From NCBI RefSeq assembly GCF_037902255.1, contig NZ_CP147990.1, forward strand, positions 4,140,001-4,172,000: 32,000 nucleotides of DNA, given 5' to 3'. Shown here in pieces: positions 2,058-21,548 of the stretch. The position numbers and the translations under genes are program-made. Source of the stretch: Candidatus Electrothrix sp. GW3-4 (GTDB lineage Bacteria; Desulfobacterota; Desulfobulbia; Desulfobulbales; Desulfobulbaceae). Within the stretch, counting starts at the first letter, position 1, and every line of letters begins with the position of its first letter. The notes below the pieces were generated by a model that had not been told where the DNA came from, did no database searches, and saw nothing but the letters and a program-made list of their open reading frames with translations.

Positions 2058-2088
2058 GGGATTTTTATTGCGAAGCTCCGGGCCTGAT

Positions 2089-2118
2089 CCCCTGCCCCTT
2101 GGGGCGGGGTTCTTTTTT
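2089..2118 (+). terminator. Rho-independent terminator downstream of the zinc-ribbon/TPR gene
   Basis: A GC-rich hairpin, cccctgcc(ccttgg)ggcgggg with one bulged T, is followed by ttctttttt. It lies 32 nt after the stop at 2057. Confidence 0.6.
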
Positions 2119-2157
2119 ACTGCACGTTGCCGGAGGTTAACTCCGTCAACAACCACG

Positions 2158-3765
2158 CTATTCAACCTGATCAGCAGCGTCTGATAAATCGCTGCCAAAC
2201 ATATCCATGAAGTCCTTATCCCTGGCTTCCTTATCCTTGCTCTTTTTATGGCTGCTGAACTTATCATTAATCCAGCGTCCCTTCTTGACACTACCATTGG
2301 CAAAATTGAGAATCCCCTTGCCGTTCCTCTTATCGTTCTCCCAGCCACCGATATAGGTATCGCCGTCAGCATCAATTAAGCGCCCGTGTCCGTGTCGTTT
2401 ATCGTCTTGCCATTCTCCCTCATAAACAGAACCGTCAGGATAGGTATACTTTCCCTGATCATACTGTTTATTATTATACCATTCTCCTTCATAAACACCG
2501 CCATCTGGAAAAGTGCAGGTCCCTTTTCCGTGCTTCTTATCTCTATCCCACTCTCCGTCATACACCATACCATCTGTGAATGAGAGCTTCCCTGTGCCGT
2601 GCATAAAACCGTTTTTCCATTCGCCCTCATAAATGGTACCATCCAGGCAGGTAAGTTTCCCCACACCCTCCATTGCACCATCTAACCAGTTACCAGAATA
2701 GATATTGCCGGAATTAAAGGTATAGCTTCCGGTACCGTGCCGCTTGCCCTCGAAAAATTCTCCCTCGTAATGCTCGCCTTCATGGGAAACATAGGTGCCT
2801 CGTCCGTGCATCAAATCAGCACGCCACTCCCCAGTATATTTTCCCCCGTCAGCAGCTACATAGGTTCCGACACCATTTTTTTGATCGTTACGCCACTCCC
2901 CTATATAGCTATCGCCTTCAATATAGGTAAAGGTGCCGTACCCCTCTTTTCTATCATTTCGCCATTCACCGCTATAGCTATCTCCATTGGCATAGGTATA
3001 GGTCCCCTTGCCATGTCGCATATCATCCTGCCATTCGCCCTCATACCTATCCTCTTCTTCATAGAGCAGCGCGCCTTTCCCATGCCGTTTTCCGTCCTTC
3101 CAAAAGCCAGTATAGGTCGCTTCTGAGGGATAAGTATAAGTGCCCCGACCATTAAACTTATCATGCTCCCATTGGCCGATATATTTGGTTCCATCCGGGT
3201 GCGTGTAGACCCCATGACCATGACGATGATCTTGCACAAAGGCACCGAAGTATTTCGCTCCATCAGGAAAAAAAACGGTTCCTTGGCCATGTCGCGCGTC
3301 GTTCTCCCAGCTGCCAGTATACTTGCGCCCACTCTTGAGGGTCAGTGTGCCCTGCCCGTGCTTACGGTTCTCCCACCACTCGCCCTCATACACAGAACCA
3401 TCCGGGTAGACCAATGTCCCTTTGCCTTCTCGTTTGTTGTTTCGCCACTCGCCTTCGTAGACCGCACCGTCTGGCATAGTCCAGGAGCCTTGGCCATGGC
3501 GAAGATTATCCTTCCAGTCTCCGTAATAACGGCCAGACCACTCAATGCAGCCCCGGCCATTTCGCATCCCGTTCTTCCATTCGCCTTCAAAGCTCCCACC
3601 GTTCGGATCAAAGTAGGTCCCCATGCCGTGCCGCTTATCATCGACCCATTCGCCCTCATAATGGCCACCGTCAGGGTACACACATAACCCGTGTCCGTGC
3701 CGTTTGCCGTCTGATAACTCTCCAATATATTCTTCTTCACTTTGATGAATACTTTTCTTTGTCAT
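2158..3765 (-). CDS. MORN-repeat protein (about 22 tandem 23-aa MORN repeats with an acidic/basic C-terminal tail)
   Basis: A 535-aa ORF. Residues about 13-503 are an uninterrupted array of Y-x-G-E/x-W-x-x-x-x-x-H/N-G-x-G-x-x-x-x-x-x-G-x-x units, for example YEGEWVDDKRHGMGTYFDPNGGS and YEGEWRNNKREGKGTLVYPDGSV. Confidence 0.9.
   Translation of the reverse strand: MTKKSIHQSEEEYIGELSDGKRHGHGLCVYPDGGHYEGEWVDDKRHGMGTYFDPNGGSFEGEWKNGMRNGRGCIEWSGRYYGDWKDNLRHGQGSWTMPDGAVYEGEWRNNKREGKGTLVYPDGSVYEGEWWENRKHGQGTLTLKSGRKYTGSWENDARHGQGTVFFPDGAKYFGAFVQDHRHGHGVYTHPDGTKYIGQWEHDKFNGRGTYTYPSEATYTGFWKDGKRHGKGALLYEEEDRYEGEWQDDMRHGKGTYTYANGDSYSGEWRNDRKEGYGTFTYIEGDSYIGEWRNDQKNGVGTYVAADGGKYTGEWRADLMHGRGTYVSHEGEHYEGEFFEGKRHGTGSYTFNSGNIYSGNWLDGAMEGVGKLTCLDGTIYEGEWKNGFMHGTGKLSFTDGMVYDGEWDRDKKHGKGTCTFPDGGVYEGEWYNNKQYDQGKYTYPDGSVYEGEWQDDKRHGHGRLIDADGDTYIGGWENDKRNGKGILNFANGSVKKGRWINDKFSSHKKSKDKEARDKDFMDMFGSDLSDAADQVE
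2257..3729 (-). repeat. 69-bp (23-codon) periodic coding repeat array encoding the MORN units
   Basis: The periodicity is clear in the translated protein, with about 21 full units and one partial. The units are degenerate at DNA level. The stop-poor composition produces several long spurious ORFs on both strands. Confidence 0.8.
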
Positions 3766-3828
3766 ATCATACGTCCTTTTTTTGAGCGGATAACGAGGAA
3801 AGCAACATGTGTTTCAGATTCTCTCAGC

Positions 3829-4371
3829 TCATGAGGAGCTCCTTCGGGCCCGCTGGTGCAGCTCCAAAATAAAAAGCCAGCCATAATCGGCAGCAGCAAC
3901 AACACTGAACAGGATTGCAGGCCAGAGGACCCAGTGGATCTTGTCACTCCACAACACAGCAGTCAGCAGGAGAAAAAATTGTGCTGTGGTCGCCAGTTTG
4001 CCGGACCAACGGACATCCATCCGATGAAAGGCTGACCATTCCTTGATGGAAGCAGCATACATTGCTGTGCCTGCCACCAAGAGGTCGCGGGCCAGCAAAA
4101 GGGGAATCAAGAAAAGAGAAAATTTCCCGTGAGCAGCAATCGTGAGCAGGGCGAAAAGAACAAAAAGCTTATCTGCAACAGCATCAAGTATAGCCCCTAC
4201 TTTACTCTGGGCATGCCAGCGTCTGGCTATCCAGCCGTCAAGGGCATCGCTGCCCCCTCCTCCGATGATCAGCCATACCCAGGCAGACTCTGGGACAAGG
4301 GGAAAAAGCAGGGCCAGCAGTAACCGGAAGCTCGATAAGATATTTGGTATAATTTGAATAATTTTCTCCAT
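3829..4371 (-). CDS. pgsA: CDP-alcohol phosphatidyltransferase, PgsA-like (CDP-diacylglycerol--glycerol-3-phosphate 3-phosphatidyltransferase)
   Basis: A 180-aa hydrophobic protein. It has an exact CDP-alcohol phosphatidyltransferase motif, D-x2-D-G-x2-A-R-x8-G-x3-D-x3-D, in SDALDGWIARRWHAQSKVGAILDAVADK. Its size matches E. coli PgsA (182 aa). It lies immediately downstream of uvrC, as in E. coli. Confidence 0.85.
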   Translation of the reverse strand: MEKIIQIIPNILSSFRLLLALLFPLVPESAWVWLIIGGGGSDALDGWIARRWHAQSKVGAILDAVADKLFVLFALLTIAAHGKFSLFLIPLLLARDLLVAGTAMYAASIKEWSAFHRMDVRWSGKLATTAQFFLLLTAVLWSDKIHWVLWPAILFSVVAAADYGWLFILELHQRARRSSS

Positions 4372-4635
4372 ACAGAATAAGTTGTTATTTACAGTTTAGT
4401 TTCCAGCGCAAATGTAAATATGCTCTGGAAACAACGAAGCAAATAACCCATTCTGTCGTTCATGGAGCTTCCTGTCAACAAAATCCGCTCTTTTTCACCC
4501 TTATATTCCAATATTCTTTATTTTTTCACCTCTTCCAAGTCCCCTGTGGTCTCAGCTATGACCATTACCTAAAAGTATATCCGCCATAGAGTCTTTTGCA
4601 AGTCAGATGCCCAATTTATCTGCATCAACCCCCTC

Positions 4636-6462
4636 CTACCCCTCATGCAACTGCCTGTACACCGACTCTGCGGTTTTCCTGCCTATCCCCGGCACCACAC
4701 TCAGTTCATCAACCGTCGCTTCCATGATCCGCTTATAGCTGCCCAGTTTTTTCAAGAGAAGGGTCTTTCGTTTTTCGCCGATTCCCTCCAGGGTATCAAG
4801 ACGTGAATGAAGGGTGGCCTTATTACGCAGCTTCCGGTGAAAGGTGATACCAAAGCGATGGGACTCATCGCGGATCCGCATCAGATAGAGCAAGGCCGGA
4901 GAATGGCCTGGTAACAGAATGGGATTCTTTCTCCCCGGACGAAAGAGCTTTTCCCCCTCTTCCTGCTTTTCCTTGGCAATGGACACCAGATCAACCCGAT
5001 TAAGCAGATCAAAACGGGCCAGGACATTGACCGCAATATTAAGCTGCCCCTTGCCACCGTCCAGCAACAGCAGATCAGGAAGATTATCCTTTGCCAAGCC
5101 GGTTTCCATGCGGCGCTCCAACACCTCATTCATCATGGCATAATCATCCGGCTCATCCTTCAGACGGATCCGATAATGACGAAAGCGTGATGTCTCCTTT
5201 TCGCCACGCCGAAAGCAAACCAGAGAGCCCACAGGTTGTTTCCCTGCCAGATTGGATATATCCAGGCACTCGATGGTATCAGGACGATGACGGAGCTTGA
5301 GAAATTTTTCCAGAGAGCGGGCCAAGGTCTCCCAGGACTTCTCTTTTTTACTCTGCTCGGCAAAGATCTGCTGGGCATTCTCTGCGGCCATCTGCATAAG
5401 CTGCATGCGTTTGCCCCGCTGAGGGACCCGCAGATCCACCGCACCCTGCCGCAGATCACGAAGTTGCTCCAACACCAAGTCCTCATCTTCGGGCGTGAGA
5501 GGCAGGAGGAGTTCGCGAGGGGGCTGGCGCTGCTCTGAATAGTACTGAAAGATGGTTTCGCGCAGGATGTGGTTATCTTCCCCCAGAGGATCATTGATAA
5601 AAAATGTTTGGGCCCCGCTGATCATACCAGCCCGCACAAAGAGCAGGGCAATGCCTACCGAAGCGTTATGCCGGGCAATGCCAAAGACATCCTGATCCAG
5701 CTGATGCTCGGCAAAAACGGTCTGGCGCTCCAAAGTCTTGCCCAACCCATTAATCTGATCCCGATACAGGGCTGCCTCCTCAAAGGCCAGCCGGGCTGCT
5801 GCTGCTCGCATTTTTTCCTGTAAGCGATTTATTACCTTATTACTTTTTCCCTCCAGAATCAGAATGACCTCATCCACCATAGCCTGATATTCCTCCTGGC
5901 TCACGAGGTCACAGCAGGGGGCCAGGCAGCGCTTCATCTGGTAATTGAGGCAGGGACGTCCCCGCTTGCTTATGGTCCGGCAACGCCGCAAAGGAAACAT
6001 GGAAAAAAGAAGATGCAACGAGGCCCGCAGGGCAGTACTTGAGGGATAGGGTCCAAAATAACGGTTGCCGTCCCTGAGCCGCCGCCGGGTCACATGCAGG
6101 CGAGGCCACTCGTCTTTAACAGTCACCTTGATCAGGGGGTAATTCTTATCATCCCGCAGGATGACATTATAACGGGGCCGGTGTTTTTTGATCAACGAGG
6201 CCTCAAGGATCAGAGCCTCCTTCTCAGTGGTGGTGAGGATGGTTTCTACTCGCTGCACATGGGAGAGCATCACAGCGGTCTTGGAATGCGCAGAGCCGGA
6301 ATAATGGGCGTATTGAGCAAGTCGCTTGCGGAGATCCCGAGCCTTGCCCACATACAGCACCTCTCTTTTCCCCAGCATCTGATACACGCCTGGCCTATGG
6401 CTGACTGTTTTCAGATATTCGTCCGAGAGAGGCGGATAAGAAGGGAAAGAGGGATCATGCAT
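4636..6462 (-). CDS. uvrC: excinuclease ABC subunit C (UvrC)
   Basis: A 608-aa ORF. It has an N-terminal GIY-YIG module (PGVYQMLGKREVLYVGKARDLRKRL...YNVILRDDKNYP), a UvrBC-interaction region, and a C-terminal RNase-H-like endonuclease with (HhH)2 (LDTLEGIGEKRKTLLLKKLGS...PGIGRKTAESV). Confidence 0.95.
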   Translation of the reverse strand: MHDPSFPSYPPLSDEYLKTVSHRPGVYQMLGKREVLYVGKARDLRKRLAQYAHYSGSAHSKTAVMLSHVQRVETILTTTEKEALILEASLIKKHRPRYNVILRDDKNYPLIKVTVKDEWPRLHVTRRRLRDGNRYFGPYPSSTALRASLHLLFSMFPLRRCRTISKRGRPCLNYQMKRCLAPCCDLVSQEEYQAMVDEVILILEGKSNKVINRLQEKMRAAAARLAFEEAALYRDQINGLGKTLERQTVFAEHQLDQDVFGIARHNASVGIALLFVRAGMISGAQTFFINDPLGEDNHILRETIFQYYSEQRQPPRELLLPLTPEDEDLVLEQLRDLRQGAVDLRVPQRGKRMQLMQMAAENAQQIFAEQSKKEKSWETLARSLEKFLKLRHRPDTIECLDISNLAGKQPVGSLVCFRRGEKETSRFRHYRIRLKDEPDDYAMMNEVLERRMETGLAKDNLPDLLLLDGGKGQLNIAVNVLARFDLLNRVDLVSIAKEKQEEGEKLFRPGRKNPILLPGHSPALLYLMRIRDESHRFGITFHRKLRNKATLHSRLDTLEGIGEKRKTLLLKKLGSYKRIMEATVDELSVVPGIGRKTAESVYRQLHEG

Positions 6463-6760
6463 GACAATTTTGACTGAGGTGCTCTTGCGGATTTACCCGA
6501 TGACTACATTTTGAAAAAAGAGAGCAATTCTTCGCTGTCCTGTCATCAACTATGACCTGAGATTTCTGGTAAAAAAAAACACCCTATGGTAATCTATGTA
6601 TCTTGGTGCAATAAAAAAATAGCCTGGAAAGCCGCGTAGCTCTGCTCGCCCGTCCCCCTGTTCAGGGACCCCTCCAGACTGACAAGCCCGAGACGGACAA
6701 TTCCTGCTGGCCTGTTTATGGGAAGAATATTTCCTCAAAAATCCGACGAGAGGTCTCAGT

Positions 6761-9700
6761 ATGCTGGCGCTCCCTCAATACCACGTCGTACAGCAACTCT
6801 ACGAAAGCGTTTACTCAACCATTTACCGCAGTATAAGAAAAGAGGACAACCAGCCAGTTATCCTGAAAATGCTCAAGGAAGAGTATGCATTGCCAGAAGA
6901 AATCTCGCGCCGCAAACAGGAATACAACATCATAACAAGCCTATCCCATCCTGGCATTATTAAAGCACACGGTATTGAACGATACCAGAGCACGATTGTT
7001 ATTATCCTGGAAGATTTTGCTGGTGCCCCCTTAAAAAGGGTCGTGGAAAACCAAGGGGTCACTGTACGGGACTTCTTTCCTCTTGCCCTTCAACTTGCAG
7101 ATAGTCTGGCTTATATCCATGCGGCTGACGTTATCCATAAGGATATCACCCCTGATAATATTCTTATGAACCAGGAAACGAAGCGCCTAAAAATTATTGA
7201 TTTTGGTACTGCAACTCGCTTGGTATACGAGGCTCCTTCCTTACAAAACCCTGAACAGTTGCAGGGGACGTTGGCCTATTTATCTCCTGAACAGACAGGT
7301 CGAATTAATCGCAGAATAGATTATCGAACGGATTTATACTCAATGGGCATTATCTTCTACCAACTTCTCACCGGACGTTTGCCGTTCCAGTCAACTGATG
7401 CCCTGGAGTTGGTCCATGCCCATATAGCCAAAATACCAACGCCTCTTTACGAACTTGCCCCCCATGTTCCAAGAATCCTCTCGGACATCGTTATGAAGCT
7501 GCTCAGAAAAAACGCTGAAGAGAGATATCAGTCAGCTTTTGGGGTAAAGGCTGATTTAGAAAAATGTCATGATAATCTCTCCAAATTACAGCGTCAACCA
7601 GCCTTTACCTTTCCCTTAGCGCAAGATGATATTTCAGGAAAATTTCAAATTCCCCAAAAACTCTATGGACGGAAAGATGAGGTCAACACATTACTCCAAG
7701 CCTTTGATCGGGTTTGTCAGGGACAAACCGAGCTCATGCTGGTGACAGGAGATTCCGGGGTCGGCAAAACAGCCCTCGTCAATGAGATCCATAAACCAAT
7801 GACCAAAAAAAATGGCTCTTTTGTGGTGGGTAAATTTGATCAATTCCAAAGAAATACCCCATATTCAGGTATTGCCATGGCATGTGATACGTTTTGCCGC
7901 TACCTCTTGATGGAACATGAAGACATCTTGGAAAAATGGAGGGAGAGAATCCTCACTGCTTTGGGAGAGCACGCTCAGCTTCTGATTGAAATTATACCAA
8001 CATTAGAGCTGATTACCGGCCCTCAACCGGCTGTACCTCAAGTAGAAGCAACTGACGCAAAGAACCGCTTTTCCTTATTTTTTCTCAAATTCGTCGAATC
8101 GCTCTGCGATAAAGAACATCCCATCATTTTATTTCTTGATGACCTGCAATGGGCTGATTCAGATTCCTTACTGTTACTGAAAAAAATCATCACTGAAAGA
8201 AAAATACAATATCTCTTTATCATAGGGTCGTATAGAAGTCATGAAGTGAGCGAACAGCATCCCCTTCTAAGACTCCTTAAGAGACTGCAACAAGGCAATG
8301 CGGTTATTCATACCGTTGAACTGCATAACTTACGACTAGCTGATATTGAGCAACTTTTGCAGGATAGTCTGGGCTGCTCAAGAGAAAAAATTGCCTCACT
8401 CGCTACGTTAATTTATCAAAAGACGCAGGGGAATGCCTTTTTCACCCATCAATTTTTGCACGTTCTCAGAGAAGAAAAACTATTGAATTTCAGTTTTGAA
8501 ACCCATCAATGGCAATGGGATATTCAGCAAATAGCAGCGAAAAATATTACCGATAACGTGGTTGATTTACTGGCGGAAAAAATTAATAATCTTCCTCATG
8601 AAACCAGTAAGCTTCTTCAATTGGCTGCCTGCATCGGCAACAGCTTTGACTTTTTAACCCTTTCAACATGCTCTCATCGCTCAAGTGCAGATGCATTCCC
8701 CTTTTTATGGAATGCAATGAAAGAGGGGCTGATCCAACCTCTTAATGAAAATTACAAACATATTCAAATTGCAGCACACGCATCATTTAGATTTTCCCAC
8801 GATAAAATCCGCCAGGCGGCTTACGAACTTCTCCCTGATGAGCGCAAAAAAGCCGTTCATTTGCAAATTGGCCGCTTCCTCTTAAAAAATGCACCCTCCT
8901 CTTCCCGCCTTTCAGATACCCTCTTTGATATCTGCTGGCATTTCAATCAGAGTCTCGACCTGCTCAGCTCCTCTGACGAGATACTCGCAATTGCGCGTCT
9001 CAATTTGCAGGCTGGCCAGAAGGCAAAGTCATCAATGGCAGATCAGATTGCAATCAAATATTTAGAATTTGCAAAGAGATGCCTGCCAGCAAATCATTGG
9101 CAAGAAGAGTATGATTTATCTCTAAAGATCTATAAAGAAACCATAGAAACCCTCTTTCTGATCGGTCAATTTGCAGAGGTTGAAAAAATTGCTGAAATTA
9201 TTTTGCAAGAGACTGTAAACGTATCGGATAGAATAAAGGTGTTTGAAATCCTTATTCAGCTCTATATGGTCAAAAATCAGATGGAGCAGGCTCTTGAGAC
9301 TGCGTTACTTGTCTTGACAATGCTCGGGGTAAGTTTGGACCACGCGCCCCCTGAAAAATTTTCCATCGAAGAGATCTACACATCAGGAGAAATGAGCAAC
9401 CCCGAACAGTTAGCAGCTATGCGGATTCTCAATTTTGCGATTTCTCCAGCATATACGGTAGCGCCTGAGTTCTATCCCCGTATTGTCTTTACCATGGTTA
9501 GGCTATCAACGACCTACGGAAATTCATCGCTATCCGCTTTTGGTTACACGAATTTCGCCTCACTCCTCTGCTGTGCCTTTAATAACATCAAAAAAGGCTA
9601 TCAAACAGGCCAGGCAGGGCTCTGGGTGCTGGAGAAGTTTTCCTCTGATGCATTACGGGCAAAGGTCTTTGCCTCATATTATGTCACAGTGCATCACTGG

Positions 9701-11152
9701 AAAAGGCATGCTCAAGAGAGTATCCAACCCCTGATTGAAGGATGTAGGTATGGCTTAGAGACAGGAGATCTGGAGTTTGCAGGTATTACCCTTATGCATT
9801 GTTCAAGTTATTTATGTTGGCTGGGGCATCCTCTGCCTATCGTCGAGGAACAACATAAAAAGTTCAGCGGGTTAATGCATCGTTTTAATTTAGAGTACCA
9901 GGCCACCTATCTTACTATCTGGCAACAGATGGTTTTTAACCTGCAAGGGAGGAACAGTATCCCATGCAGATTACAGGGGGAAGTCTTTGATGAAGACGAA
10001 TTGCTTCCGACACTGGTGGAAAACAACTATGGGATGGCCATCTTTGGTGTTTATCTTGCGAAAATCCTGCTTTGTTATCTGTTTAAGGAGATTGATCAGG
10101 CCTTGGACAATGCCCTGCTCGCTGAAAAATATGAGCAGGCAAATACCGGCGTAATGGTCGTTCCCATCTATCAGTTCTACTATTCATTGGCACTTCTGGC
10201 TTCCCTCTCAACCATTCAAGATAACACACAAAAAAACATCCTCCGTCAAATAGAGGCGCATCAGAAACAGATGAAGCTCTGGGCAACTCATGCACCGGAT
10301 AACTTTCAACATCGTTATGCACTGGTAGAAGCAGAAAAAGCACGTTTTCTTGGTAAACCAAAAGCAGGAGAGTGGTATGAGCAGGCCATTCTCCTGGCTG
10401 AAAAAAATAACTATCGAATAGAAGAGGCCTTAGCCTACGAATTGGCTGGTGAATACTACTCGGAACAGGGCATGAAGAAAATTGCCCGAACATTTTTTCA
10501 AGAAGCGCGCTCTTCCTATAGCCGGTGGGGAGCAACTGCAAAGGTACTTCATCTAGAAAATAATCATCCAGAGCTGTTAGATGGTTACAATGATATAAGC
10601 CAAAAGAGTATCCCAGCAACTGCTACCGTGGGCTCCAGCATATTGTCTCCCATTCAGCTGGACCTTACCAGTGTGATAAAGGCATCACAGACGCTGTCCA
10701 AAGAAATTGTGCTCAGCAAATTACTGGCAAACATGATGCGTATTGTCATTGAAAATGCAGGGGCACAAAAAGGGGTATTGCTCTTGCCTCGGAAAAATAA
10801 ATGGTTTATTGAAACAGAAGGGTCTGCTGAGGATGATGAGATAATGGTCCTGCGCTCCCTTTCCCTTGAAGAATATTCTCTACTTCCCCGCACCCTTATT
10901 CATTATATTGCCCGTACCCAAGAAAATGTGGCGCTGTCCAATGCAGCTCAGGAGGGCAATTTTCGTCAAGACCCTTATATTCTCAAAGAACAGTGTAAAT
11001 CCATACTTGGTATGCCGCTGACCAATCAAGGAAAAATCATCGGTATCATATATCTAGAGCATCCTCAAAAAGCTAACCTCTCATACAGGCAATACTGCAA
11101 GACTTGCCTTGGCATTTGTTCAAAGAACGCCAAAAATCGAGCGATAATATGA
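6761..11152 (+). CDS. 5' fragment: Ser/Thr protein kinase + AAA ATPase (COG3899-like) + TPR-like region + most of a GAF domain; the last 31 codons are read-through into the IS
   Basis: The kinase subdomains are visible: VILKMLK (VAIK-like Lys), HKDITPDNIL (HRD-type catalytic loop), IIDFGTA (DFG) and LAYLSPEQ (APE). A Walker A motif, GDSGVGKT, is followed by ILFLDDLQWAD (Walker B). The GAF sequence begins near SQTLSKEIVLSKLLANMM. Native sequence stops at 11058, and the tail HPQKANLSYRQYCKTCLGICSKNAKNRAII is IS-derived. Confidence 0.85.
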   Translation: MLALPQYHVVQQLYESVYSTIYRSIRKEDNQPVILKMLKEEYALPEEISRRKQEYNIITSLSHPGIIKAHGIERYQSTIVIILEDFAGAPLKRVVENQGVTVRDFFPLALQLADSLAYIHAADVIHKDITPDNILMNQETKRLKIIDFGTATRLVYEAPSLQNPEQLQGTLAYLSPEQTGRINRRIDYRTDLYSMGIIFYQLLTGRLPFQSTDALELVHAHIAKIPTPLYELAPHVPRILSDIVMKLLRKNAEERYQSAFGVKADLEKCHDNLSKLQRQPAFTFPLAQDDISGKFQIPQKLYGRKDEVNTLLQAFDRVCQGQTELMLVTGDSGVGKTALVNEIHKPMTKKNGSFVVGKFDQFQRNTPYSGIAMACDTFCRYLLMEHEDILEKWRERILTALGEHAQLLIEIIPTLELITGPQPAVPQVEATDAKNRFSLFFLKFVESLCDKEHPIILFLDDLQWADSDSLLLLKKIITERKIQYLFIIGSYRSHEVSEQHPLLRLLKRLQQGNAVIHTVELHNLRLADIEQLLQDSLGCSREKIASLATLIYQKTQGNAFFTHQFLHVLREEKLLNFSFETHQWQWDIQQIAAKNITDNVVDLLAEKINNLPHETSKLLQLAACIGNSFDFLTLSTCSHRSSADAFPFLWNAMKEGLIQPLNENYKHIQIAAHASFRFSHDKIRQAAYELLPDERKKAVHLQIGRFLLKNAPSSSRLSDTLFDICWHFNQSLDLLSSSDEILAIARLNLQAGQKAKSSMADQIAIKYLEFAKRCLPANHWQEEYDLSLKIYKETIETLFLIGQFAEVEKIAEIILQETVNVSDRIKVFEILIQLYMVKNQMEQALETALLVLTMLGVSLDHAPPEKFSIEEIYTSGEMSNPEQLAAMRILNFAISPAYTVAPEFYPRIVFTMVRLSTTYGNSSLSAFGYTNFASLLCCAFNNIKKGYQTGQAGLWVLEKFSSDALRAKVFASYYVTVHHWKRHAQESIQPLIEGCRYGLETGDLEFAGITLMHCSSYLCWLGHPLPIVEEQHKKFSGLMHRFNLEYQATYLTIWQQMVFNLQGRNSIPCRLQGEVFDEDELLPTLVENNYGMAIFGVYLAKILLCYLFKEIDQALDNALLAEKYEQANTGVMVVPIYQFYYSLALLASLSTIQDNTQKNILRQIEAHQKQMKLWATHAPDNFQHRYALVEAEKARFLGKPKAGEWYEQAILLAEKNNYRIEEALAYELAGEYYSEQGMKKIARTFFQEARSSYSRWGATAKVLHLENNHPELLDGYNDISQKSIPATATVGSSILSPIQLDLTSVIKASQTLSKEIVLSKLLANMMRIVIENAGAQKGVLLLPRKNKWFIETEGSAEDDEIMVLRSLSLEEYSLLPRTLIHYIARTQENVALSNAAQEGNFRQDPYILKEQCKSILGMPLTNQGKIIGIIYLEHPQKANLSYRQYCKTCLGICSKNAKNRAII

Positions 11153-12714
11153 TTCAGCTGGCTGCGTAAAAGTAAAAACCGTGAAAGATATAAATTTTCA
11201 AGCTGTTCCTGCAACTTCCTGAGCAGAACCATCAGATTCATGACCAGGAAGATACAGTTGATCCATGCTTCAGAGGTTCTCTGAAGTTTTGCCCGGATGT
11301 AGTTGAGTCGGTAGCCGTTTTTTCCTTGGCCAAATTTCCCCTCAATGGGGATCCGTTCTCGACTATCCCGAATTCGTTGTGCTTTCAGTTCCCGAAGACG
11401 TTCTTTGTTTTCTTCTGTCTCTTTCGGGGACCTGCCCAATCGTTTACCACCAAATCGAATACCTTTCTCTTTGAGATATTTACGGTTTTCTCTTGTTCCG
11501 TAAATCTGATCAGCCAGTACGACTGCCGGATAGTAACCATTCCGGCGCTTGTAACTCTCCACTTGCTCACGCAAATCCGTGCCTTCGTTGAAGGCATCCC
11601 AACCAATATGATCGACAAAAGCCAAACCATCGACCATGCTCACGCTGAGTTTGGCACCGAACTCCACATTTTTACCTGCTTTCCCACGAACTATCGGTCG
11701 TACATGAGGTTGGGCAATGGAAACAATTCGGTCATCGCAGCGTCGTTTTCGTTTTTTATACATCTCATCCTGCTGGCGATACACATGCTGAATGATCCAA
11801 TACTGTCGTTGTTGCTGATGGGGAAGTGGAAAAGGTGCCGTTTCAACATTGTCAAGCAACTCATCAATATATCGCAGATTTCTTCGGATGTACTGTAATT
11901 GCTGCCGAAGTCCGCGCCGCAGAATTTTTCGGCCTGGTTTCTTTTTCTTAGCCAGATTCAGGTAGTTTTTACGGGCAAGTCTCCGATATGTTCTGGGCTT
12001 TTTGGCGTAGTCACTCTGTTTGTACAGATCATCAATCAGCTGCTCGGAAATCTCACGAGCTTCGTTGAGTAAACTCAGATCAGTCGGGTAACGAATCGCT
12101 TGCTCAGCAACCGTTGCATCGACAAGCATTTTTCCCTTATTTTCAACGGGCTCTTCCTGACTCTCATCCTCTTTTTCGTCTTCATTTGCCGTACTTTTCT
12201 TTGAGAGAGCAAGTTTTTCCAAAATCACTTCTTCAAAAGCAGAAAAAACATCTTTTCCCATGCGCTTGCGAATTTCAACAAACAGGCTGGGAGCTAGAGG
12301 TCGCTTGTCTTGAAAACAAGAAAATCCAACAAAATATTGAAGATAGGGATTCTCCTGGATCTGAAGTACGGTTTCTTCATCACTGAGCGTCAACTTGTGC
12401 TTAATGATTAACGCGCCGATCACCAATCTGGCATCTTTGGCTGGTCGTCCTTGATGCGGGTCCAAAGTTCGATAATATCTGATGGCGAACTCATCCCACG
12501 GAATAACTTTATGCCATTTGATCCATCTGTTTTCAGGGTTCAGTTTACCTCCAAACGGAAGGCTGAATCCTTCAAGTGTAAGCTGTCTGTCACTGGTGTA
12601 CCTGATCATGTGCATGCCTTATGAGGGGGTGAACGTCAAAAACATGCATATTTTACAATATTTTTACAACTTTTTCATTTAAAATCAGTGCACTGAGGCT
12701 TTTTAAGGGCAATC
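11059..12714 (-). mobile_element. IS5/IS1182-type insertion sequence (about 1.66 kb) with imperfect terminal inverted repeats and a 6-8 bp target duplication
   Basis: The direct repeat tatctaga occurs at 11051-11058 and 12715-12722. The last two bases (ga) could instead belong to the IS end, so the boundaries are uncertain by about 2 nt. The ends share an inverted CCT(c/t)AAAAAGC core (left ...catcctcaaaaagc, right gctttttaaggg...). A single DDE transposase ORF fills the element. Confidence 0.85.
11065..12615 (-). CDS. DDE transposase, IS5/IS1182 type (InsH-like N-terminal DUF772 domain + DDE_Tnp_1)
   Basis: A 516-aa ORF. The N-terminus FSLPFGGKLNPENRWIKWHKVIPWDEF...GRPAKDARLVIGALIIKHKLTLSDEETVLQIQENPYLQYFVGF is typical of the InsH N-terminal domain. 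The catalytic signature is LVDATVAEQAIRYPTD ... VVLADQIYGT ... RIPIEGKFGQGKNGYRLNYIRAKL. Confidence 0.9.
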   Translation of the reverse strand: MHMIRYTSDRQLTLEGFSLPFGGKLNPENRWIKWHKVIPWDEFAIRYYRTLDPHQGRPAKDARLVIGALIIKHKLTLSDEETVLQIQENPYLQYFVGFSCFQDKRPLAPSLFVEIRKRMGKDVFSAFEEVILEKLALSKKSTANEDEKEDESQEEPVENKGKMLVDATVAEQAIRYPTDLSLLNEAREISEQLIDDLYKQSDYAKKPRTYRRLARKNYLNLAKKKKPGRKILRRGLRQQLQYIRRNLRYIDELLDNVETAPFPLPHQQQRQYWIIQHVYRQQDEMYKKRKRRCDDRIVSIAQPHVRPIVRGKAGKNVEFGAKLSVSMVDGLAFVDHIGWDAFNEGTDLREQVESYKRRNGYYPAVVLADQIYGTRENRKYLKEKGIRFGGKRLGRSPKETEENKERLRELKAQRIRDSRERIPIEGKFGQGKNGYRLNYIRAKLQRTSEAWINCIFLVMNLMVLLRKLQEQLENLYLSRFLLLRSQLNHIIARFLAFFEQMPRQVLQYCLYERLAF

Positions 12715-12945
12715 TATCTAGAAAATAATTTAACAACAGGGGCCTTTAACCAGCAGCGACTGGAAATACTGACCCTTCTTTCTTCCCAACTTGCTATTTC
12801 CATTAAAAACTCTCTCTTATACAATCAACTGGAGGTAAAGGTCGCTGAAAGAACCCGTGCCTTACAGCAGGAGATAGGGGAACGTAAACGCGCTGAAGAA
12901 AAAGCAAACTCTGCCAGCAAGGCAAAGAGCGATTTTCTCTCCAAT

Positions 12946-14310
12946 ATGAGCCATGAATTTCGAACCCCGCTCAATGTTATCCTCGGGTTTGCCCAAATTC
13001 TGGAACGGGATCACACCATCAGCAAAGAATCCCAGGAGGAGGTATCAACAATCCGCCGCAATGCCCAGCATCTCGTCACCCTTATTAACGAGGTACTGGA
13101 CCTTGCTAAGATTGAATCTGGTCAGGCGACCTTAGATAAATCAAGTTTTGATCTGGATAACTTTCTCGAATCTCTCAAAGAGACCTTTCATCAGCAGGCA
13201 CTGGACAAGGGATTATTTTTTCATATACAAAAAGATGAAAACCAACTTCGCTATATCAAGACTGATGAGGGAAAACTCCGGCAAATTCTTATTAACCTGC
13301 TGGGCAACGCCTTTAAATTTACGAAAACAGGCGGTATTTCCTTACGCGTACGCTCAGCAAAGGAGGAAGGAGATATCCAGATGCTTCACTGTGAAGTTGA
13401 AGATACCGGCATAGGCATTAATCCAACACACCAGAAAAAAATCTTTGCCCCCTTTGTTCAGTCTTCAGCAAGCGTGGATCAAAGCGTTGGTACCGGTTTA
13501 GGGCTTTCCATTACCCAGCAATTTATTGAGTTGATGGGAGGAAATATTGCAATAACCAGTACACCCGGTATAGGATCGACTTTTCGCTTCAAGGTCTCCA
13601 TAGAACAATCTGAACACACAGAGATACAAAGGAGCTCCCGTTCTCTGCGGGTTATAGGTCTTGCTCCGGGACAGAAAATATTTCGCCTCCTTATTGTAGA
13701 AGATGTCCTTGAAAATAGGAGAATCCTGGTTAAATTATTTAACAGTATTGGCTTCAGGGTAAAAGAGGCCTCCAACGGGGCCCAAGGGGTTGAAATATGT
13801 CAAACCTGGTATCCTGATCTCATCTGGATGGACATACGCATGCCAGTTATGGACGGTTATGAGGCAACCCGACAGATAAGAAAAACAAAGATGGGCAAAG
13901 AAGTAGTTATTATAGCCCTGACTGCTCAAGCATTTGGGAATGAACGAAAAAAAACACTCAGAGCTGGCTGTAATGATTGTATCAGTAAGCCATATATGGA
14001 GGAAGAGCTTTTCGCAACCATGAAAAAGCACTTGGGCATTCAATTTATTTATCAGGACGAAGACAAGAAGAAGCAGAGTGATTCAGCTGAACAAGCCAGT
14101 GGTGTCCTTGATCCAAAAATCATTGATAAGTTGCCCGAGGATATGAGGAGTGCGTTACTTGAAGCAACAGCCCAACTAGACCAGGAACGCTTTTTTACCG
14201 TTCTGGAGAAACTTCCTCCCCTTCATAAAAAAATAGCTACCGCTTTACAAGTATTGGCAGAGAACTATCAGTTCGAGGAAATTGAACATATTCTTGGGAG
14301 AAAACAATGA
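12946..14310 (+). CDS. 3' fragment: HisKA - HATPase_c - receiver (REC) - C-terminal helical tail of the interrupted hybrid kinase
   Basis: It has the H-box SHEFRTPLN, an N-box LINLLGNAFKFT, a G1 box EDTGIGI and a G2 box GTGLGLSI. The REC domain runs LLIVEDVLENRR...WMDIRMPVMDGYE...ALTAQ...SKP. The ATG at 12946 sits two codons before the phospho-His and is probably an ORF-caller artefact. The homologous frame is open back to 12715. Confidence 0.85.
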   Translation: MSHEFRTPLNVILGFAQILERDHTISKESQEEVSTIRRNAQHLVTLINEVLDLAKIESGQATLDKSSFDLDNFLESLKETFHQQALDKGLFFHIQKDENQLRYIKTDEGKLRQILINLLGNAFKFTKTGGISLRVRSAKEEGDIQMLHCEVEDTGIGINPTHQKKIFAPFVQSSASVDQSVGTGLGLSITQQFIELMGGNIAITSTPGIGSTFRFKVSIEQSEHTEIQRSSRSLRVIGLAPGQKIFRLLIVEDVLENRRILVKLFNSIGFRVKEASNGAQGVEICQTWYPDLIWMDIRMPVMDGYEATRQIRKTKMGKEVVIIALTAQAFGNERKKTLRAGCNDCISKPYMEEELFATMKKHLGIQFIYQDEDKKKQSDSAEQASGVLDPKIIDKLPEDMRSALLEATAQLDQERFFTVLEKLPPLHKKIATALQVLAENYQFEEIEHILGRKQ

Positions 14311-15392
14311 CAGAGAGCCATATTCAAGGGGATATTCTGATTGTCGATGATTCCCCGGAAAATCTTAAGCTCTTGGCCAAAATACTCACTGCAAATAATT
14401 TCCAGGTCAGAGGGTCGAACAGCGGTCGCTATGCGCTGAAATCCATCAAAAAGAAGCTGCCTGATCTTATTCTCCTTGATATTAATATGCCCGAAATGAA
14501 CGGCTATGAGGTATGCCGCCAACTGAAAAATGATCCTTCAACGGCTGATATTCCGGTCATCTTTATCAGTGGCTTAAAGGACAATGAAAGCAAGATAAAG
14601 GGTTTTGAGGCTGGCGGGGTCGACTATGTCACCAAACCTTTTCAGGCTCAGGAGATACTGGCCAGAGTTCGGACCCATTTATCCATGAGCCGTATGAAGC
14701 ACCATCTGGAGGAAATAGTCCAGGAACGGACAGCCGAGCTTCAGGAGGTCACTGAGCAGATCAAGGCAGCTCTCAAAGAGAAAGAAGTCCTGCTGAAAGA
14801 GATTCATCATCGGGTGAAAAATAATATGGCGATGATGTCCTCCTTTCTCCAGCTTCAGATCCAGCAGGTGACAGATCCTGAGGCCTTACAACGCTTCATT
14901 GACACGAGAAGCCGTATCTACACCATGGCCCTTGTCCATGAAAAGCTCTACCACACCGAAGACTTGAAAAATATAAATATCAAGGAGTTCATTCATGATC
15001 TGGCTGAATCCCTGATATTTTCCTACACGACCTCTCCTCACCAGATAACACTGAACACAGATATCACAGATGTTTCCCTGAATCTTGACCGAGCAATTCC
15101 CTGCGGGCTCATTATTAACGAACTCGTGTCCAATGCCCTGAAACATGCCTTCCCAAAGAACAGGAAGGGAATAATCACCATTGGTTTTGCTACCGACTCT
15201 GAAGAGAAATATATCCTCACTGTCAGTGATGATGGAGTGGGCTTACCCGAGCAAATAAATATTCAGGAAACAGATTCCATTGGCCTGAAGTTAGTCCCTC
15301 TTTTATCAAGCCAACTCGATGGAGAATTTGCAATCGAAGAGGGGCAGGGTGCCTCGAAAAAAGGAACCACCTTCAAAATCGCCTTTCCTTGA
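14307..15392 (+). CDS. response-regulator receiver fused to a HisKA_2/HWE-type histidine kinase (REC - HisKA_2 - HATPase_c)
   Basis: The REC domain reads ILIVDDSPENL...ILLDINMPEMNGYE...FISG...TKP. The HisKA_2 H-box is EIHHRVKNNMAMMSSFLQLQ. The ATPase boxes are NELVSNALKHAF and SDDGVGLP. Its ATG overlaps the upstream stop (ATGA at 14307-14310). Confidence 0.9.
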   Translation: MTESHIQGDILIVDDSPENLKLLAKILTANNFQVRGSNSGRYALKSIKKKLPDLILLDINMPEMNGYEVCRQLKNDPSTADIPVIFISGLKDNESKIKGFEAGGVDYVTKPFQAQEILARVRTHLSMSRMKHHLEEIVQERTAELQEVTEQIKAALKEKEVLLKEIHHRVKNNMAMMSSFLQLQIQQVTDPEALQRFIDTRSRIYTMALVHEKLYHTEDLKNINIKEFIHDLAESLIFSYTTSPHQITLNTDITDVSLNLDRAIPCGLIINELVSNALKHAFPKNRKGIITIGFATDSEEKYILTVSDDGVGLPEQINIQETDSIGLKLVPLLSSQLDGEFAIEEGQGASKKGTTFKIAFP

Positions 15393-18661: not shown

Positions 18662-18747
18662 GGAGGAATGGCCGAGTGGTTGAAGGCGGCGGTCTTGAAA
18701 ACCGTTGTACGAAAGTACCGTGGGTTCGAATCCTACTTCCTCCGCCA
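18662..18747 (+). tRNA. tRNA-Ser (anticodon UGA), CCA encoded
   Basis: The acceptor stem pairs GGAGGAA with TTCCTCC. The anticodon loop is cTTGAaa, with TGA at 18696-18698. It has a long variable arm (tgtacgaaagtaccg), a T-loop GGTTCGAATCC, discriminator G and CCA. Confidence 0.9.
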
Positions 18748-18780: not shown

Positions 18781-18873
18781 GGAGAGATGACCGAGCTGGC
18801 CGATGGTGCTCGCCTGCTAAGCGAGTGTGGGGGTCAAACTCCACCGAGGGTTCGAATCCCTCTCTCTCCGCCA
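18781..18873 (+). tRNA. tRNA-Ser (anticodon GCU), CCA encoded
   Basis: The acceptor stem pairs GGAGAGA with TCTCTCC. The anticodon loop is ctGCTaa, with GCT at 18816-18818. It has a long variable arm (tgtgggggtcaaactccacc), a T-arm GAGGGTTCGAATCCCTC, then G and CCA. Confidence 0.9.
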
Positions 18874-19878: not shown

Positions 19879-20772
19879 TTATTCTTGCCCAACCTTTCTC
19901 TCAGCCACCAAATTGATCAAACGATCAAGATCCTCAGGGGAATAATATGCTATCTCCAGTTTACCTCGGGTCCCGTTCTGAACAATTCGTACCTTGGTAT
20001 TAAACTGATTCGTTAACTGCGTTGAGAGAGAACGACAGTAGGCAACGGAAAGCCCATCATCTTTCTTTTTTTTCTCTGCTGTAGGCTGTTTCTTTTTTTG
20101 CACCGCTTGGCGGCAGATATTTTCGGTCTGGCGAACAGAAAGGTCCTCTTTTAAGATCCGGTCCCGGATCTCCTGCATCTGGAGAGGGTCGTCTTTCAGG
20201 CGAAGGAGTACCCTGGCATGCCCTTCAGAGATCAATGCGCTTGCAACGTCATCTTGCAGTGATGCTGGAAGCTTCAAGAGCCTGAGTACATTGGTCACTG
20301 TGGAGCGTTTTCGGCCAACCTTGTGGGCAACCTCTTCCTGTGTCAAACGAAACACTTCAATGAGGCGAGAATAGGCTATGGCCTCTTCAATAGGATTGAG
20401 ATCCTGACGCTGAATGTTTTCAATCAGGGCTAATTCTAATGTTTCGTCATCAGAGCTAGTCTCCATAATAACGACAGGCACTTCCTCTTCGCCTACCAAC
20501 CGGGCAGCTCTGAGGCGACGTTCTCCAGCGATCAATTTATACCGATTACCGCCATTACTGCTTACCAGGAGGGGCTGAATGATGCCTCTTTCGCGAATAG
20601 ACTCTGCCAGTTGGTTGAGCTTTTCCTCGTCAAAATTATTCCTTGGCTGATGAGGATTAACTTCTATCTTGTCTATATCACAAAAAAAATATTTTGATTC
20701 CTCATCGTCCAATGATACATCATCTGGCAGGAGGGCGGCAACGCCTCTACCCAACACGTTTTTTGAACTCAT
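19879..20772 (-). CDS. parB: chromosome partitioning protein ParB (Spo0J)
   Basis: The ParB boxes are present: NPHQPRNNFDEEKLNQLAESIRERGIIQPLLV, YKLIAGERRLRAARLVG and IENIQRQDLNPIEEA, with the HTH region LTQEEVAHKVGRKRSTVTNVLRLLKL. Its start overlaps the parA stop. Confidence 0.95.
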   Translation of the reverse strand: MSSKNVLGRGVAALLPDDVSLDDEESKYFFCDIDKIEVNPHQPRNNFDEEKLNQLAESIRERGIIQPLLVSSNGGNRYKLIAGERRLRAARLVGEEEVPVVIMETSSDDETLELALIENIQRQDLNPIEEAIAYSRLIEVFRLTQEEVAHKVGRKRSTVTNVLRLLKLPASLQDDVASALISEGHARVLLRLKDDPLQMQEIRDRILKEDLSVRQTENICRQAVQKKKQPTAEKKKKDDGLSVAYCRSLSTQLTNQFNTKVRIVQNGTRGKLEIAYYSPEDLDRLINLVAERKVGQE

Positions 20773-21548
20773 TGCGCTTTCCTGTTTCTTCGTAAGAACT
20801 CATTACCAAGCTTATTAAAGGCCTTAGCACCGGCGCAGTTCTTATCATACTCAATAATCGTCTTCCCGTGACTGGGGCTTTCGCTCAGTCGCACATTCCT
20901 CGGTATAATTGTTTTGAAGACCTGGTCTTTGAAATGGTTTTTTATCTCTTCGGCGACCTTATGGGTCAAGCTATTCCGTTGGTCAAACATGCTCATCAAG
21001 AGACCTTCAATATAAAGCCCGCGATTCAGGCTTTTTTTCACCTTGCTAATAGTACCGATCAGCTGAGCCAAGCCCTCCATGGCAAAATATTCACATTGCA
21101 TGGGTATAAGAACTGAATCTGCGGCTGTCAAGCCATTAATTGTTAAGAGTCCGAGAGATGGAGGACAATCAATAATGATATAATCGTAGCGTTCTCGAAC
21201 TTCTTTAAGAATCCTTCGCAGTTGTTTTTCCCGATTTTCTTTGGTTATCAATTCAATTTCAACCCCGACCAAGTCTATGGATGCCGCAAGAATGAAAAAA
21301 TTCTTAATACTGGTTCGCTGAATACAGTCTGCTGTGTTCGAAACAGTCCCCATATAGCAGGTATAGAGATGTTTTTCCGGGTCGGCATTAAACAATCCCA
21401 CGCCACTTGATGCATTTCCCTGAGGATCTGAATCAACAAGCAACACCTTTTTTCCCTTTGTCGCCAAGGTAGCAGCAAGGTTAATTGCTGTGGTCGTTTT
21501 TCCTACGCCACCTTTTTGGTTTGCAAGTACAACTATTTTCGACTTCAT
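20769..21548 (-). CDS. parA: chromosome partitioning ATPase ParA (Soj)
   Basis: It has the deviant Walker A motif NQKGGVGKTTTAINLA, followed by LLVDSDPQGNAS and IIIDCPPSLG. The ORF is 259 aa. Confidence 0.95.
   Translation of the reverse strand: MKSKIVVLANQKGGVGKTTTAINLAATLATKGKKVLLVDSDPQGNASSGVGLFNADPEKHLYTCYMGTVSNTADCIQRTSIKNFFILAASIDLVGVEIELITKENREKQLRRILKEVRERYDYIIIDCPPSLGLLTINGLTAADSVLIPMQCEYFAMEGLAQLIGTISKVKKSLNRGLYIEGLLMSMFDQRNSLTHKVAEEIKNHFKDQVFKTIIPRNVRLSESPSHGKTIIEYDKNCAGAKAFNKLGNEFLRRNRKAQ

What the first reader, a model, noticed from the sequence alone, without database searches (positions are those of the whole stretch)
11051..12722. Apparently recent IS insertion splits a 1961-codon kinase gene inside its GAF domain
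An IS of about 1656 bp, carrying an intact 516-aa DDE transposase, is flanked by the direct repeat tatctaga at 11051-11058 and 12715-12722. Deleting the IS and one repeat copy joins 6761-11058 to 12723-14310 in frame, giving 5886 nt. The restored GAF sequence is ...GKIIGIIYLENNLTTGAFNQQRLEILTLLSSQLAISIKNSLLYNQLE...

Both halves are free of stops or frameshifts, and the duplication is perfect. This suggests the event is evolutionarily recent. It may be strain-specific or even a laboratory-passage polymorphism.

The insertion uncouples the Ser/Thr-kinase/AAA/GAF input half from the histidine-kinase/receiver output half. The 5' half now ends in a 31-aa IS-encoded tail. The 3' half has no obvious start of its own, because ATG 12946 lies two codons before the phospho-accepting His.
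Basis: seen in the sequence. Interest (0 to 1): 0.65.

Follow-up and report, generated by a model that had tools for sequence, protein, structure and literature searches.

The report
IS5-family insertion splits a sensor-kinase gene
A 1.66-kb mobile element of the IS5 family has inserted into a large signalling-kinase gene of the cable bacterium Candidatus Electrothrix antwerpensis GW3-4; this is a real but ordinary gene disruption.

Summary
TATCTAGA occurs at 11051-11058 and 12715-12722. Removing 1664 bp restores one 5886-nt, 1961-codon ORF with the domains Pkinase, AAA_16, GAF, HisKA, HATPase_c and receiver.

Two boundaries need correcting. Comparison with 11 related IS copies shows the element is 11057-12714 (1658 bp) and the true target-site duplication is 6 bp, TATCTA. 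This fits the TANNTA target typical of this IS5 clade. The extra "GA" is the IS terminus matching the target by coincidence.

The window is 100% identical to Ca. Electrothrix sp. GW3-4. Syntenic orthologues in other Electrothrix species (1954-1987 aa, 75-77% identity) are uninterrupted. They align across the junction without gaps, at both the DNA and protein level.

Separate assemblies of two SRA runs reproduce both IS-gene junctions with no mismatches. They show no contig break of the kind a common empty-site allele would cause.

"Recent" is plausible but only loosely bounded, at under about 1% neutral divergence. The lab-passage idea was not tested.

The likely effect is loss of kinase-to-phosphorelay coupling, with a possible polar effect on the overlapping downstream response-regulator/kinase gene. 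This is an unnamed member of a known kind of element, and interest is low.

The parts
6761..11056 (+). 5' part of the disrupted dual kinase gene: codons 1-1432, covering Pkinase 7-257, AAA_16 300-488, a TPR-like region, and the GAF domain up to the strand ...GKIIGIIYL
   Evidence: ORF list, Pfam on the restored protein, 100% match to the GW3-4 protein WYD83918.1
11051..11056 (.). Left copy of the 6-bp target-site duplication TATCTA, which encodes Tyr1431-Leu1432
   Evidence: it fits the TANNTA duplications of related copies
11057..12714 (-). IS5-family insertion sequence of 1658 bp. Its transposase gene runs antisense to the kinase gene
   Evidence: Colinear over positions 1-1658 with copies L016 (95% nt), L017 (92%), L005 (88%) and L008 (87%). 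Neither end sequence occurs anywhere else in the window
11057..11073 (.). Terminal inverted repeat at the transposase-distal end, GAGCATCCTCAAAAAGC
   Evidence: 12 of 17 bases match the reverse complement of 12698-12714. This end is conserved in related copies
12698..12714 (.). Terminal inverted repeat at the transposase-proximal end. Its reverse complement reads GATTGCCCTTAAAAAGC
11065..12615 (-). Transposase ORF of 516 aa (514 aa if translation starts at the ATG at 12609, as in relatives). It is full length and has no stops
   Evidence: Pfam DUF772 and DDE_Tnp_1_2, NF033578 at 389 bits, alignment with 8 homologues
11057..11152 (+). IS-encoded 31-codon tail (EHPQKANLSYRQYCKTCLGICSKNAKNRAII) plus the stop codon, appended to the 5' kinase fragment
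12715..12720 (.). Right copy of the 6-bp target-site duplication TATCTA
12721..14310 (+). 3' part of the disrupted gene: codons 1433-1961 plus the stop. It covers the last GAF helix, a coiled coil, HisKA 1500-1566, HATPase_c 1614-1726 and the receiver 1756-1865. The frame is open from 12697, and the first canonical start codon is ATG 12946
   Evidence: PGAP calls a 478-aa product from ATA 12874 (WYD86375.1)
14307..15392 (+). Downstream response-regulator/HisKA_2 histidine kinase gene. Its ATG overlaps the kinase stop codon (ATGA), so it is probably in the same operon and exposed to a polar effect
   Evidence: The same arrangement is found in Ca. E. laxa

Best explanation
An IS5-family insertion sequence of 1658 bp, carrying one 516-aa DDE transposase gene and imperfect 17-bp terminal inverted repeats, transposed into a TANNTA target (TATCTA, codons Tyr1431-Leu1432). 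The target lay in a previously intact 1961-codon HstK-type dual kinase gene (Ser/Thr kinase, AAA_16 ATPase, GAF, histidine kinase, receiver) of Ca. Electrothrix antwerpensis GW3-4. The insertion duplicated the 6-bp target.

Shown: the insertion, its ends and duplication, the intact syntenic orthologues, and the gap-free in-frame restoration.

Inferred: the event is young, within-species in age. The 5' product is a 1463-aa protein that lacks the last GAF helix and all output domains. The 3' part lacks a normal start codon, so kinase input is uncoupled from phosphorelay output and the gene is effectively knocked out. Transcription of the overlapping downstream RR-HisKA_2 gene is probably reduced by polarity.
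For: - Repeat and in-frame join.
- IS ends and 6-bp TSD: fixed by 5 Desulfopila copies with perfect TANNTA duplications and by 4 copies at 87-95% nt identity that are colinear over exactly 1-1658. ISMae6-family and ISAcma17-family copies show the same TAATTA and TAGTTA duplications.
- Transposase: above the IS5 family cut-off and full length against homologues. The R-x3-E-x6-K stretch RIPIEGKFGQGK and D166, D369 and E425 are invariant.
- Organism: identified from a 100% match to WYD83918.1 of Ca. Electrothrix sp. GW3-4 and the genome paper PMC11247825.
- Orthologues: intact proteins of 1954-1987 aa, synteny in E. laxa, and no gaps at the junction in protein or DNA.
- GAF domain: complete only after restoration.
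- Junctions: both are reproduced with 0 mismatches by Logan assemblies of SRR28154588 and SRR28154589. Contigs end at 11080 and start at 12691, each 24 nt inside the IS.
- Catalytic motifs: all are intact in both halves, namely K36, HKD 126-128, DFG, Walker A 330-337, the H-box at 1509-1517, the N, G1 and G2 boxes, and the receiver Asp in WMDIRMP.
- Start codon: no canonical start in the 3' frame before ATG 12946.
Against: - The age is not measured. Intact reading frames only bound it, and the 5' half could stay open through selection.
- No empty-site allele of this species was found, and no second genome of the species was available. Fixation or polymorphism therefore cannot be judged.
- The IS copy number in GW3-4 could not be counted.
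- Expression of either fragment is untested. PGAP does call a 478-aa product from a non-canonical ATA start.
- Promoter-like matches near the junction (6 found) are within about 1.3 sd of the shuffled mean of 3.4 (sd 2.0).
Confidence: 0.9

Rival explanations
1. Assembly artefact: the long-read assembler or the polishing step placed a repeated IS inside the gene, which is really intact in the organism.
For: The genome comes from Nanopore metagenomic reads of an enrichment in which the cable bacterium was about 2% of the community, and polishing was reported as troublesome. Contigs breaking at the IS ends suggest the IS is a repeat.
Against: A misassembly would not create a precise 6-bp duplication of the clade's TANNTA target with exact in-frame restoration. 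Both junctions are reproduced with 0 mismatches in separate k-mer assemblies of two runs.
Confidence: 0.02
2. An old, fixed split: the two halves now work as separate genes, an STK-AAA sensor and an HK-receiver, and both are kept by selection.
For: Both halves are free of stops and keep all catalytic motifs. The 3' half is as conserved as the 5' half. PGAP annotates both as proteins. Family members with other C-terminal outputs exist, for example SpoIIE instead of HK in P0062 and P0077.
Against: The cut lies inside the GAF fold, not at a domain boundary. There is no ATG, GTG or TTG for the 3' half before M1508, which removes the first 8 residues of HisKA. The TSD is perfect and the transposase is intact. 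All syntenic orthologues found are single genes.
Confidence: 0.06
3. The insertion arose or rose in frequency during laboratory propagation of the single-filament enrichment, so it is a culture polymorphism and not a feature of the natural species.
For: GW3-4 was started from one filament and passaged repeatedly on autoclaved sediment. The TSD is perfect, there is no decay, and the transposase looks active.
Against: There is no direct evidence. Assemblies of two read sets run through the flank-IS boundary. They do not break at 11058 or 12715, where they would be expected to break if an empty allele were common (this is my reasoning about de Bruijn graphs). The same data fit an insertion tens of thousands of years old.
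Confidence: 0.1

Closest known systems
IS5-family insertion sequences of the ISMae6 / ISAcma17 clade (names as used in PGAP product names)
   Same: It has a single DDE transposase of about 500 aa with an N-terminal DUF772 and a C-terminal DDE_Tnp_1-type domain. Its curated IS5 HMM score is above the cut-off. It has short imperfect terminal inverted repeats. It makes a 6-bp duplication of a TANNTA target: TAATTA in the Microcystis copy, TAGTTA in the Acaryochloris copy, and TATCTA here.
   Different: The transposase is only about 45-47% identical to those named cyanobacterial elements. The ends read GAGC.../...AATC instead of GGG(T/C)TTGC.../...GCAAACCC. Its close relatives, at 87-95% nt identity, are unnamed copies in marine-sediment Desulfobulbales metagenomes and Electrothrix MAGs. 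I could not query ISfinder, so whether it already has a name is unknown.
HstK-type 'dual protein kinases' (cbSTKIII) of filamentous cyanobacteria, e.g. Anabaena Alr2258 (PMC2176072)
   Same: It has an N-terminal Hanks-type Ser/Thr kinase, at least one GAF domain and a C-terminal histidine kinase. Full-length homologues at 42-45% identity are abundant in Nostoc, Scytonema and Coleofasciculus, and also in Beggiatoa-like bacteria.
   Different: The host is a deltaproteobacterial-type cable bacterium. This member also has an AAA_16 ATPase/TPR module and a C-terminal receiver domain. This copy is interrupted.
Ordinary IS-mediated gene inactivation (IS-generated pseudogenes)
   Same: The coding sequence is interrupted, a TSD is present, a truncated product carries an IS-encoded tail, and polarity on a downstream overlapping gene is likely.
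   Different: Nothing differs mechanistically. The only distinctive points are the host, which cannot be manipulated genetically, and the size of the gene hit.

Membership tests
IS5 family insertion sequence | The transposase matches the curated IS5-family model above its cut-off | tested here: met
   NF033578 scores 389.4 bits against a cut-off of 275. The IS1182 model (41 bits against 270) and the ISNCY model (107 against 325) fail
IS5 family insertion sequence | DDE_Tnp_1-type catalytic domain with a conserved D, D, E triad and the R-x3-E-x6-K signature | tested here: inconclusive
   Pfam DDE_Tnp_1_2 at 2e-19 and DDE_Tnp_1 at 2.8e-5. D166, D369, E425 and RIPIEGKFGQGK are invariant in 9 sequences. 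Assigning these residues as the catalytic triad is my inference and was not tested against a structure
IS5 family insertion sequence | Terminal inverted repeats at the points where similarity between copies stops | tested here: met
   12 of 17 bases match. The ends coincide in the window copy and all 9 complete related copies examined
IS5 family insertion sequence | Fixed-length target-site duplication | tested here: met
   A 6-bp TANNTA duplication is perfect in the window, in 5 of 5 Desulfopila copies, and in one ISMae6-family and one ISAcma17-family copy
IS5 family insertion sequence | Multiple copies or mobility in the host genome | tested here: inconclusive
   The whole GW3-4 genome was not searchable. 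k-mer assemblies of two runs break 24 nt inside each IS end, as expected for a repeat. The window holds one copy only
HstK-type dual Ser/Thr-His kinase (cbSTKIII) | N-terminal Ser/Thr kinase domain, at least one GAF domain and a C-terminal HisKA plus HATPase_c in one polypeptide | tested here: met
   Met for the restored ORF only: Pkinase 2e-41, GAF 3.6e-14, HisKA 3.4e-20, HATPase_c 1.7e-26. The class definition is from PMC2176072. The gene as it now stands does not meet this feature
HstK-type dual Ser/Thr-His kinase (cbSTKIII) | Catalytic motifs of both kinases are present | tested here: met
   VILK (K36), HKD 126-128, DFG 147-149, the H-box SHEFRTPLN at 1509-1517, the N box at 1624-1633, G1 at 1659-1665 and G2 at 1689-1695. 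Enzyme activity cannot be tested here
Recent IS-generated pseudogene | Uninterrupted orthologues at the same chromosomal position, and an exact in-frame restoration | tested here: met
Recent IS-generated pseudogene | An empty site in conspecific strains or populations | tested here: inconclusive
   An exact-pattern scan of JGI metagenomes for the restored junction found nothing. No second genome of the species was available

The most novel reading that the evidence does not exclude
The insertion is a polymorphism that arose in, or is still segregating within, the single-filament GW3-4 enrichment. It would then be a natural, traceable knock-out of an HstK-type dual kinase, and possibly of its downstream RR-kinase partner, in an organism for which no genetic tools exist. 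Filaments with and without the IS could be compared phenotypically. A related possibility is that precise excision at the TANNTA duplication makes the disruption reversible.
Probability: 0.08. Interest if true: 0.4.

Novelty: new member of a known kind. Interest (0 to 1): 0.15.

Why it matters
It matters mainly for annotation and for cable-bacteria genomics. The public GW3-4 annotation lists the two fragments as independent proteins: a 1463-aa 'AAA family ATPase' and a 478-aa 'ATP-binding protein' with a non-canonical start. They are better treated as one IS-disrupted gene. Comparative gene-content analyses of signalling systems in cable bacteria should count it as such.

The work also defines the ends and the TANNTA/6-bp target rule of an IS5-clade element that circulates in marine Desulfobulbales. 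This helps recognise other disruptions. Beyond that, it is a routine IS insertion.

Tried and rejected
- **Exact look-ups that failed.** The transposase (516 and 514 aa), UvrC and the 1463-aa fragment are not on record in the positional index. The transposase is also absent from the protein collection. I therefore could not count IS copies in GW3-4.
- **Genome scan.** The genome-contig scan does not contain GW3-4. It returned only related ISs from other taxa.
- **Empty-site scan.** A scan of JGI metagenomes with ATCATATATCTRGAAAATAATTTAAC gave 0 hits.
- **Direct-repeat listing.** The 20 largest of 57 direct-repeat families shown by the repeat finder did not include the 8-bp flanking repeat.
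- **Alternative end models, considered and rejected.** One model has the IS ending in TA...TA with a TA or 2-bp duplication. A plain TA duplication would leave a +4 frameshift on restoration. The version with a TA-ended IS and a 2-bp duplication inside TA-NN-TA gives the same sequence as the 6-bp model, so the two cannot be separated and the conclusion does not change.
- **My own error.** In one search I computed the upstream stop for the 3' half in the wrong frame (12630). The correct frame is 12721+3k, open from 12697.
- **Outward promoter or terminator.** Promoter-like matches (6 against a shuffled mean of 3.4, sd 2.0) and terminator-like matches (3 against 2.5, sd 1.5) do not stand out from the shuffles.
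- **Literature.** Searches for IS or transposase content in Electrothrix returned nothing useful.
Full report
**1. The observation**

The sequence is as described. TATCTAGA lies at 11051-11058 and again at 12715-12722. Between the two copies, on the minus strand, is one long ORF (11065-12615, 516 aa).

Joining 6761-11058 to 12723-14310 gives 5886 nt. This translates to 1961 codons with only the terminal stop.

Pfam finds the following domains on the restored protein:
- Pkinase, residues 7-257
- AAA_16, residues 300-488
- GAF, residues 1318-1460, matching positions 2-133 of the 133-position profile
- HisKA, residues 1500-1566
- HATPase_c, residues 1614-1726
- Response_reg, residues 1756-1865

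The junction falls after residue 1432, inside the GAF domain. The truncated 5' ORF (1463 aa) ends in 31 IS-encoded residues.

The 3' part is in frame 12721+3k. It is open from 12697, after a TGA inside the IS. It has no ATG, GTG or TTG before ATG 12946, which is M1508, two codons before His1510 of the H-box. An earlier figure of mine for the upstream stop used the wrong frame and should be ignored.

**2. What the element is, and its true ends**

The ORF product carries DUF772 and DDE_Tnp_1_2/DDE_Tnp_1. It scores 389 bits against NCBIfam NF033578 'IS5 family transposase', whose cut-off is 275. The IS1182 and ISNCY models fail.

A scan of one genome per species found relatives in Desulfobulbales and other taxa. 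Among them were five copies in Desulfopila sp. IMCC35008. An exact-pattern scan of JGI metagenomes with one IS end found two more copies, L016 and L017.

BLASTN shows that L016 (95% nt), L017 (92%), L005 (88%) and L008 (87%) are colinear with window 11057-12714 over exactly positions 1-1658.

The five Desulfopila copies share the ends GAGC...AATC. Each is flanked by a different, perfect 6-bp duplication: TATTTA, TACGTA, TACTTA, TATGTA and TAATTA. The 3' ends in Desulfotalea and Desulforhopalus also abut TAAGTA and TATTTA.

The nearest named elements are ISMae6-family and ISAcma17-family copies on cyanobacterial plasmids, at about 46% aa identity. They show TAATTA and TAGTTA duplications.

The element here is therefore 11057-12714, 1658 bp. 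Its imperfect inverted repeats match at 12 of 17 positions. The duplication is the hexamer TATCTA (11051-11056 and 12715-12720), which fits the TANNTA rule. The two extra repeat bases, 'GA', are the IS terminus coinciding with the next target bases.

A model with TA-ended termini and a 2-bp duplication inside TA-NN-TA produces the same sequence and cannot be told apart. Every model consistent with the data removes 1664 bp, so the restored gene is unchanged.

The transposase is full length against eight homologues. RIPIEGKFGQGK and D166, D369 and E425 are invariant. The G+C content of the IS (0.43-0.47) is like that of its surroundings.

**3. Whose genome, and is the gene normally intact?**

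The 1463-aa fragment is 100% identical to WYD83918.1 of Ca. Electrothrix sp. GW3-4, on a contig of 4,642,691 bp. This strain is Ca. E. antwerpensis GW3-4. Its closed genome came from a single-filament clonal enrichment, assembled from Nanopore reads and polished with Illumina reads (PMC11247825).

The best full-length hits are uninterrupted proteins of 1954-1987 aa at 75-77% identity from other Electrothrix genomes. In Ca. E. laxa the 1954-aa gene sits in the same neighbourhood: moeA, uvrC on the opposite strand, the kinase, then an overlapping Response_reg-HisKA_2 gene, then Ham1. The window has the same order.

The restored junction aligns without any gap. At protein level it reads ...GIIYLENNLTTGAF... 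in all ten homologues aligned. At DNA level, 336 nt align at 85% and 81% identity with 0 gaps.

At the insertion point the orthologues read TATCTG. GW3-4 has the synonymous TATCTA, which creates the TANNTA target.

**4. Independent support for the junctions**

Logan assemblies of two SRA runs contain this locus with 0 mismatches.
- SRR28154588: one contig covers window 1-11080 and stops 24 nt inside the IS. Another starts at 12691, 24 nt inside the other IS end, and runs to 18712.
- SRR28154589: one contig also starts at 12691.

The insertion is therefore not an artefact of the published assembly.

The contigs break inside the IS. They do not break at 11058 or 12715, where an abundant empty-site allele would create a branch. 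This last step is my reasoning about de Bruijn graphs, not a measurement.

The break lies exactly 30 nt from the outer edge of the duplication. From memory, Logan uses k = 31. If so, another sequence in the data shares the IS end plus TATCTA, for example a second copy with the same hexamer. I could not verify this.

**5. How recent?**

The duplication is perfect, the transposase is intact and both halves are open. From the codon content, 4.8% of single-base changes in the 5' half and 4.1% in the 3' half would create a stop.

If both halves evolve neutrally, the absence of stops bounds divergence since insertion to under about 1.1% at the 95% level. Using the 3' half alone, the bound is under 4.6%. 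Indels would tighten these bounds.

The 3' half is 75-81.5% identical to orthologues and the 5' half 74-76.5%, so there is no sign of faster decay.

This fits a young, within-species event but cannot separate 'laboratory' from 'many thousands of years'. No empty site of this species was found in JGI metagenomes.

**6. Likely consequence (inferred)**

The 5' product keeps the kinase, the ATPase and most of the GAF domain. It loses the segment FNQQRLEILTLLSSQLAISIKNSLLY and everything after it. From general knowledge of GAF folds, that segment corresponds to the terminal GAF helix leading into the HK coiled coil.

The 3' part has no normal start codon. PGAP's 478-aa model begins at an ATA codon at 12874. 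A product from ATG 12946 would lack the first 8 residues of HisKA.

The kinase stop overlaps the start of the downstream RR-HisKA_2 gene (ATGA at 14307-14310). The IS lies antisense between the promoter and that gene, so polarity is likely. The promoter and terminator consensus scan gave no counts that stand out from the shuffled controls.

**7. Comparison with what is known**

The gene belongs to the HstK-type 'dual protein kinase' class (cbSTKIII) described for filamentous cyanobacteria (PMC2176072). Full-length homologues at 42-45% identity are common in Nostocales and in Beggiatoa-like bacteria.

The IS belongs to the IS5 family, in the clade of ISMae6 and ISAcma17. It shares their 6-bp TANNTA duplication but is only about 46% identical to them. 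Close relatives occur in Electrothrix MAGs EH2 and ATG2 and in sediment metagenomes.

Gene disruption by an IS is routine. My searches of the paper library found nothing on IS content in Electrothrix.

**8. Verdict**

It is a new, probably unnamed, member of a known kind of element causing an ordinary disruption. Its value lies in correcting the annotation and, possibly, as a natural knock-out if it turns out to be polymorphic in culture. Interest is low.

Noticed in passing
window 11065-12615 (-): The transposase ORF is intact in the window, yet its exact sequence (516 or 514 aa) is absent from both the protein collection and the positional index. Neighbouring GW3-4 proteins are present. WYD83918.1 (the 5' fragment) and WYD83919.1 (the downstream RR) have consecutive accession numbers, so the public record may not annotate the transposase as a translated CDS.
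   Followed up: partly
window 12874-14310 (+): The public annotation gives the 3' fragment as a 478-aa 'ATP-binding protein' (WYD86375.1). It starts at an ATA codon translated as Met, and its accession number is out of order relative to its neighbours.
   Followed up: yes
window 11080 and 12691 (ends of Logan contigs L020, L018 and L019): Assemblies of two SRA runs break exactly 24 nt inside each IS end. That is 30 nt from the outer edge of the 6-bp duplication. It suggests that another sequence in the data shares the IS end plus TATCTA, for example a second copy with the same hexamer.
   Followed up: partly
window 11051-11056 compared with L014:12270-12275 and L015:4882-4887: Orthologues read TATCTG (Leu CTG) at the insertion point. 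GW3-4 has the synonymous TATCTA, which creates the TANNTA target hexamer.
   Followed up: yes
L016:213-1882, L017:123-1792, L005, L008: Short metagenome and MAG contigs carry this IS with TANNTA hexamers on both sides, but the middle two bases differ between the sides (for example TAATTA and TAGTTA). These are probably chimeric collapsed-repeat contigs, or recombination between copies.
   Followed up: partly
window 14307-14310: The kinase stop codon and the start codon of the downstream Response_reg-HisKA_2-HATPase_c gene overlap as ATGA. A comparable overlap of the two genes is also present in Ca. E. laxa (L014 13858-13865).
   Followed up: partly
L014:16549-17997 and 19910-21625: The syntenic region of Ca. 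E. laxa carries two other transposase genes (DDE_5 and DDE_Tnp_1_6) a few kb downstream of the intact orthologue. One of them lies next to DUF7149/MmeI-type restriction-modification gene pieces, which it may interrupt.
   Followed up: no
window 2158-3765 (-), 34-795 (+), 990-2057 (+): There is a 535-aa protein made of 18 MORN repeats, and two ORFs (253 and 355 aa) with no Pfam match.
   Followed up: no
window 18662-18747 and 18781-18873 (+): Two tandem tRNA-Ser genes (anticodons UGA and GCU). The Logan contig L018 ends inside the first one, at 18712.
   Followed up: no
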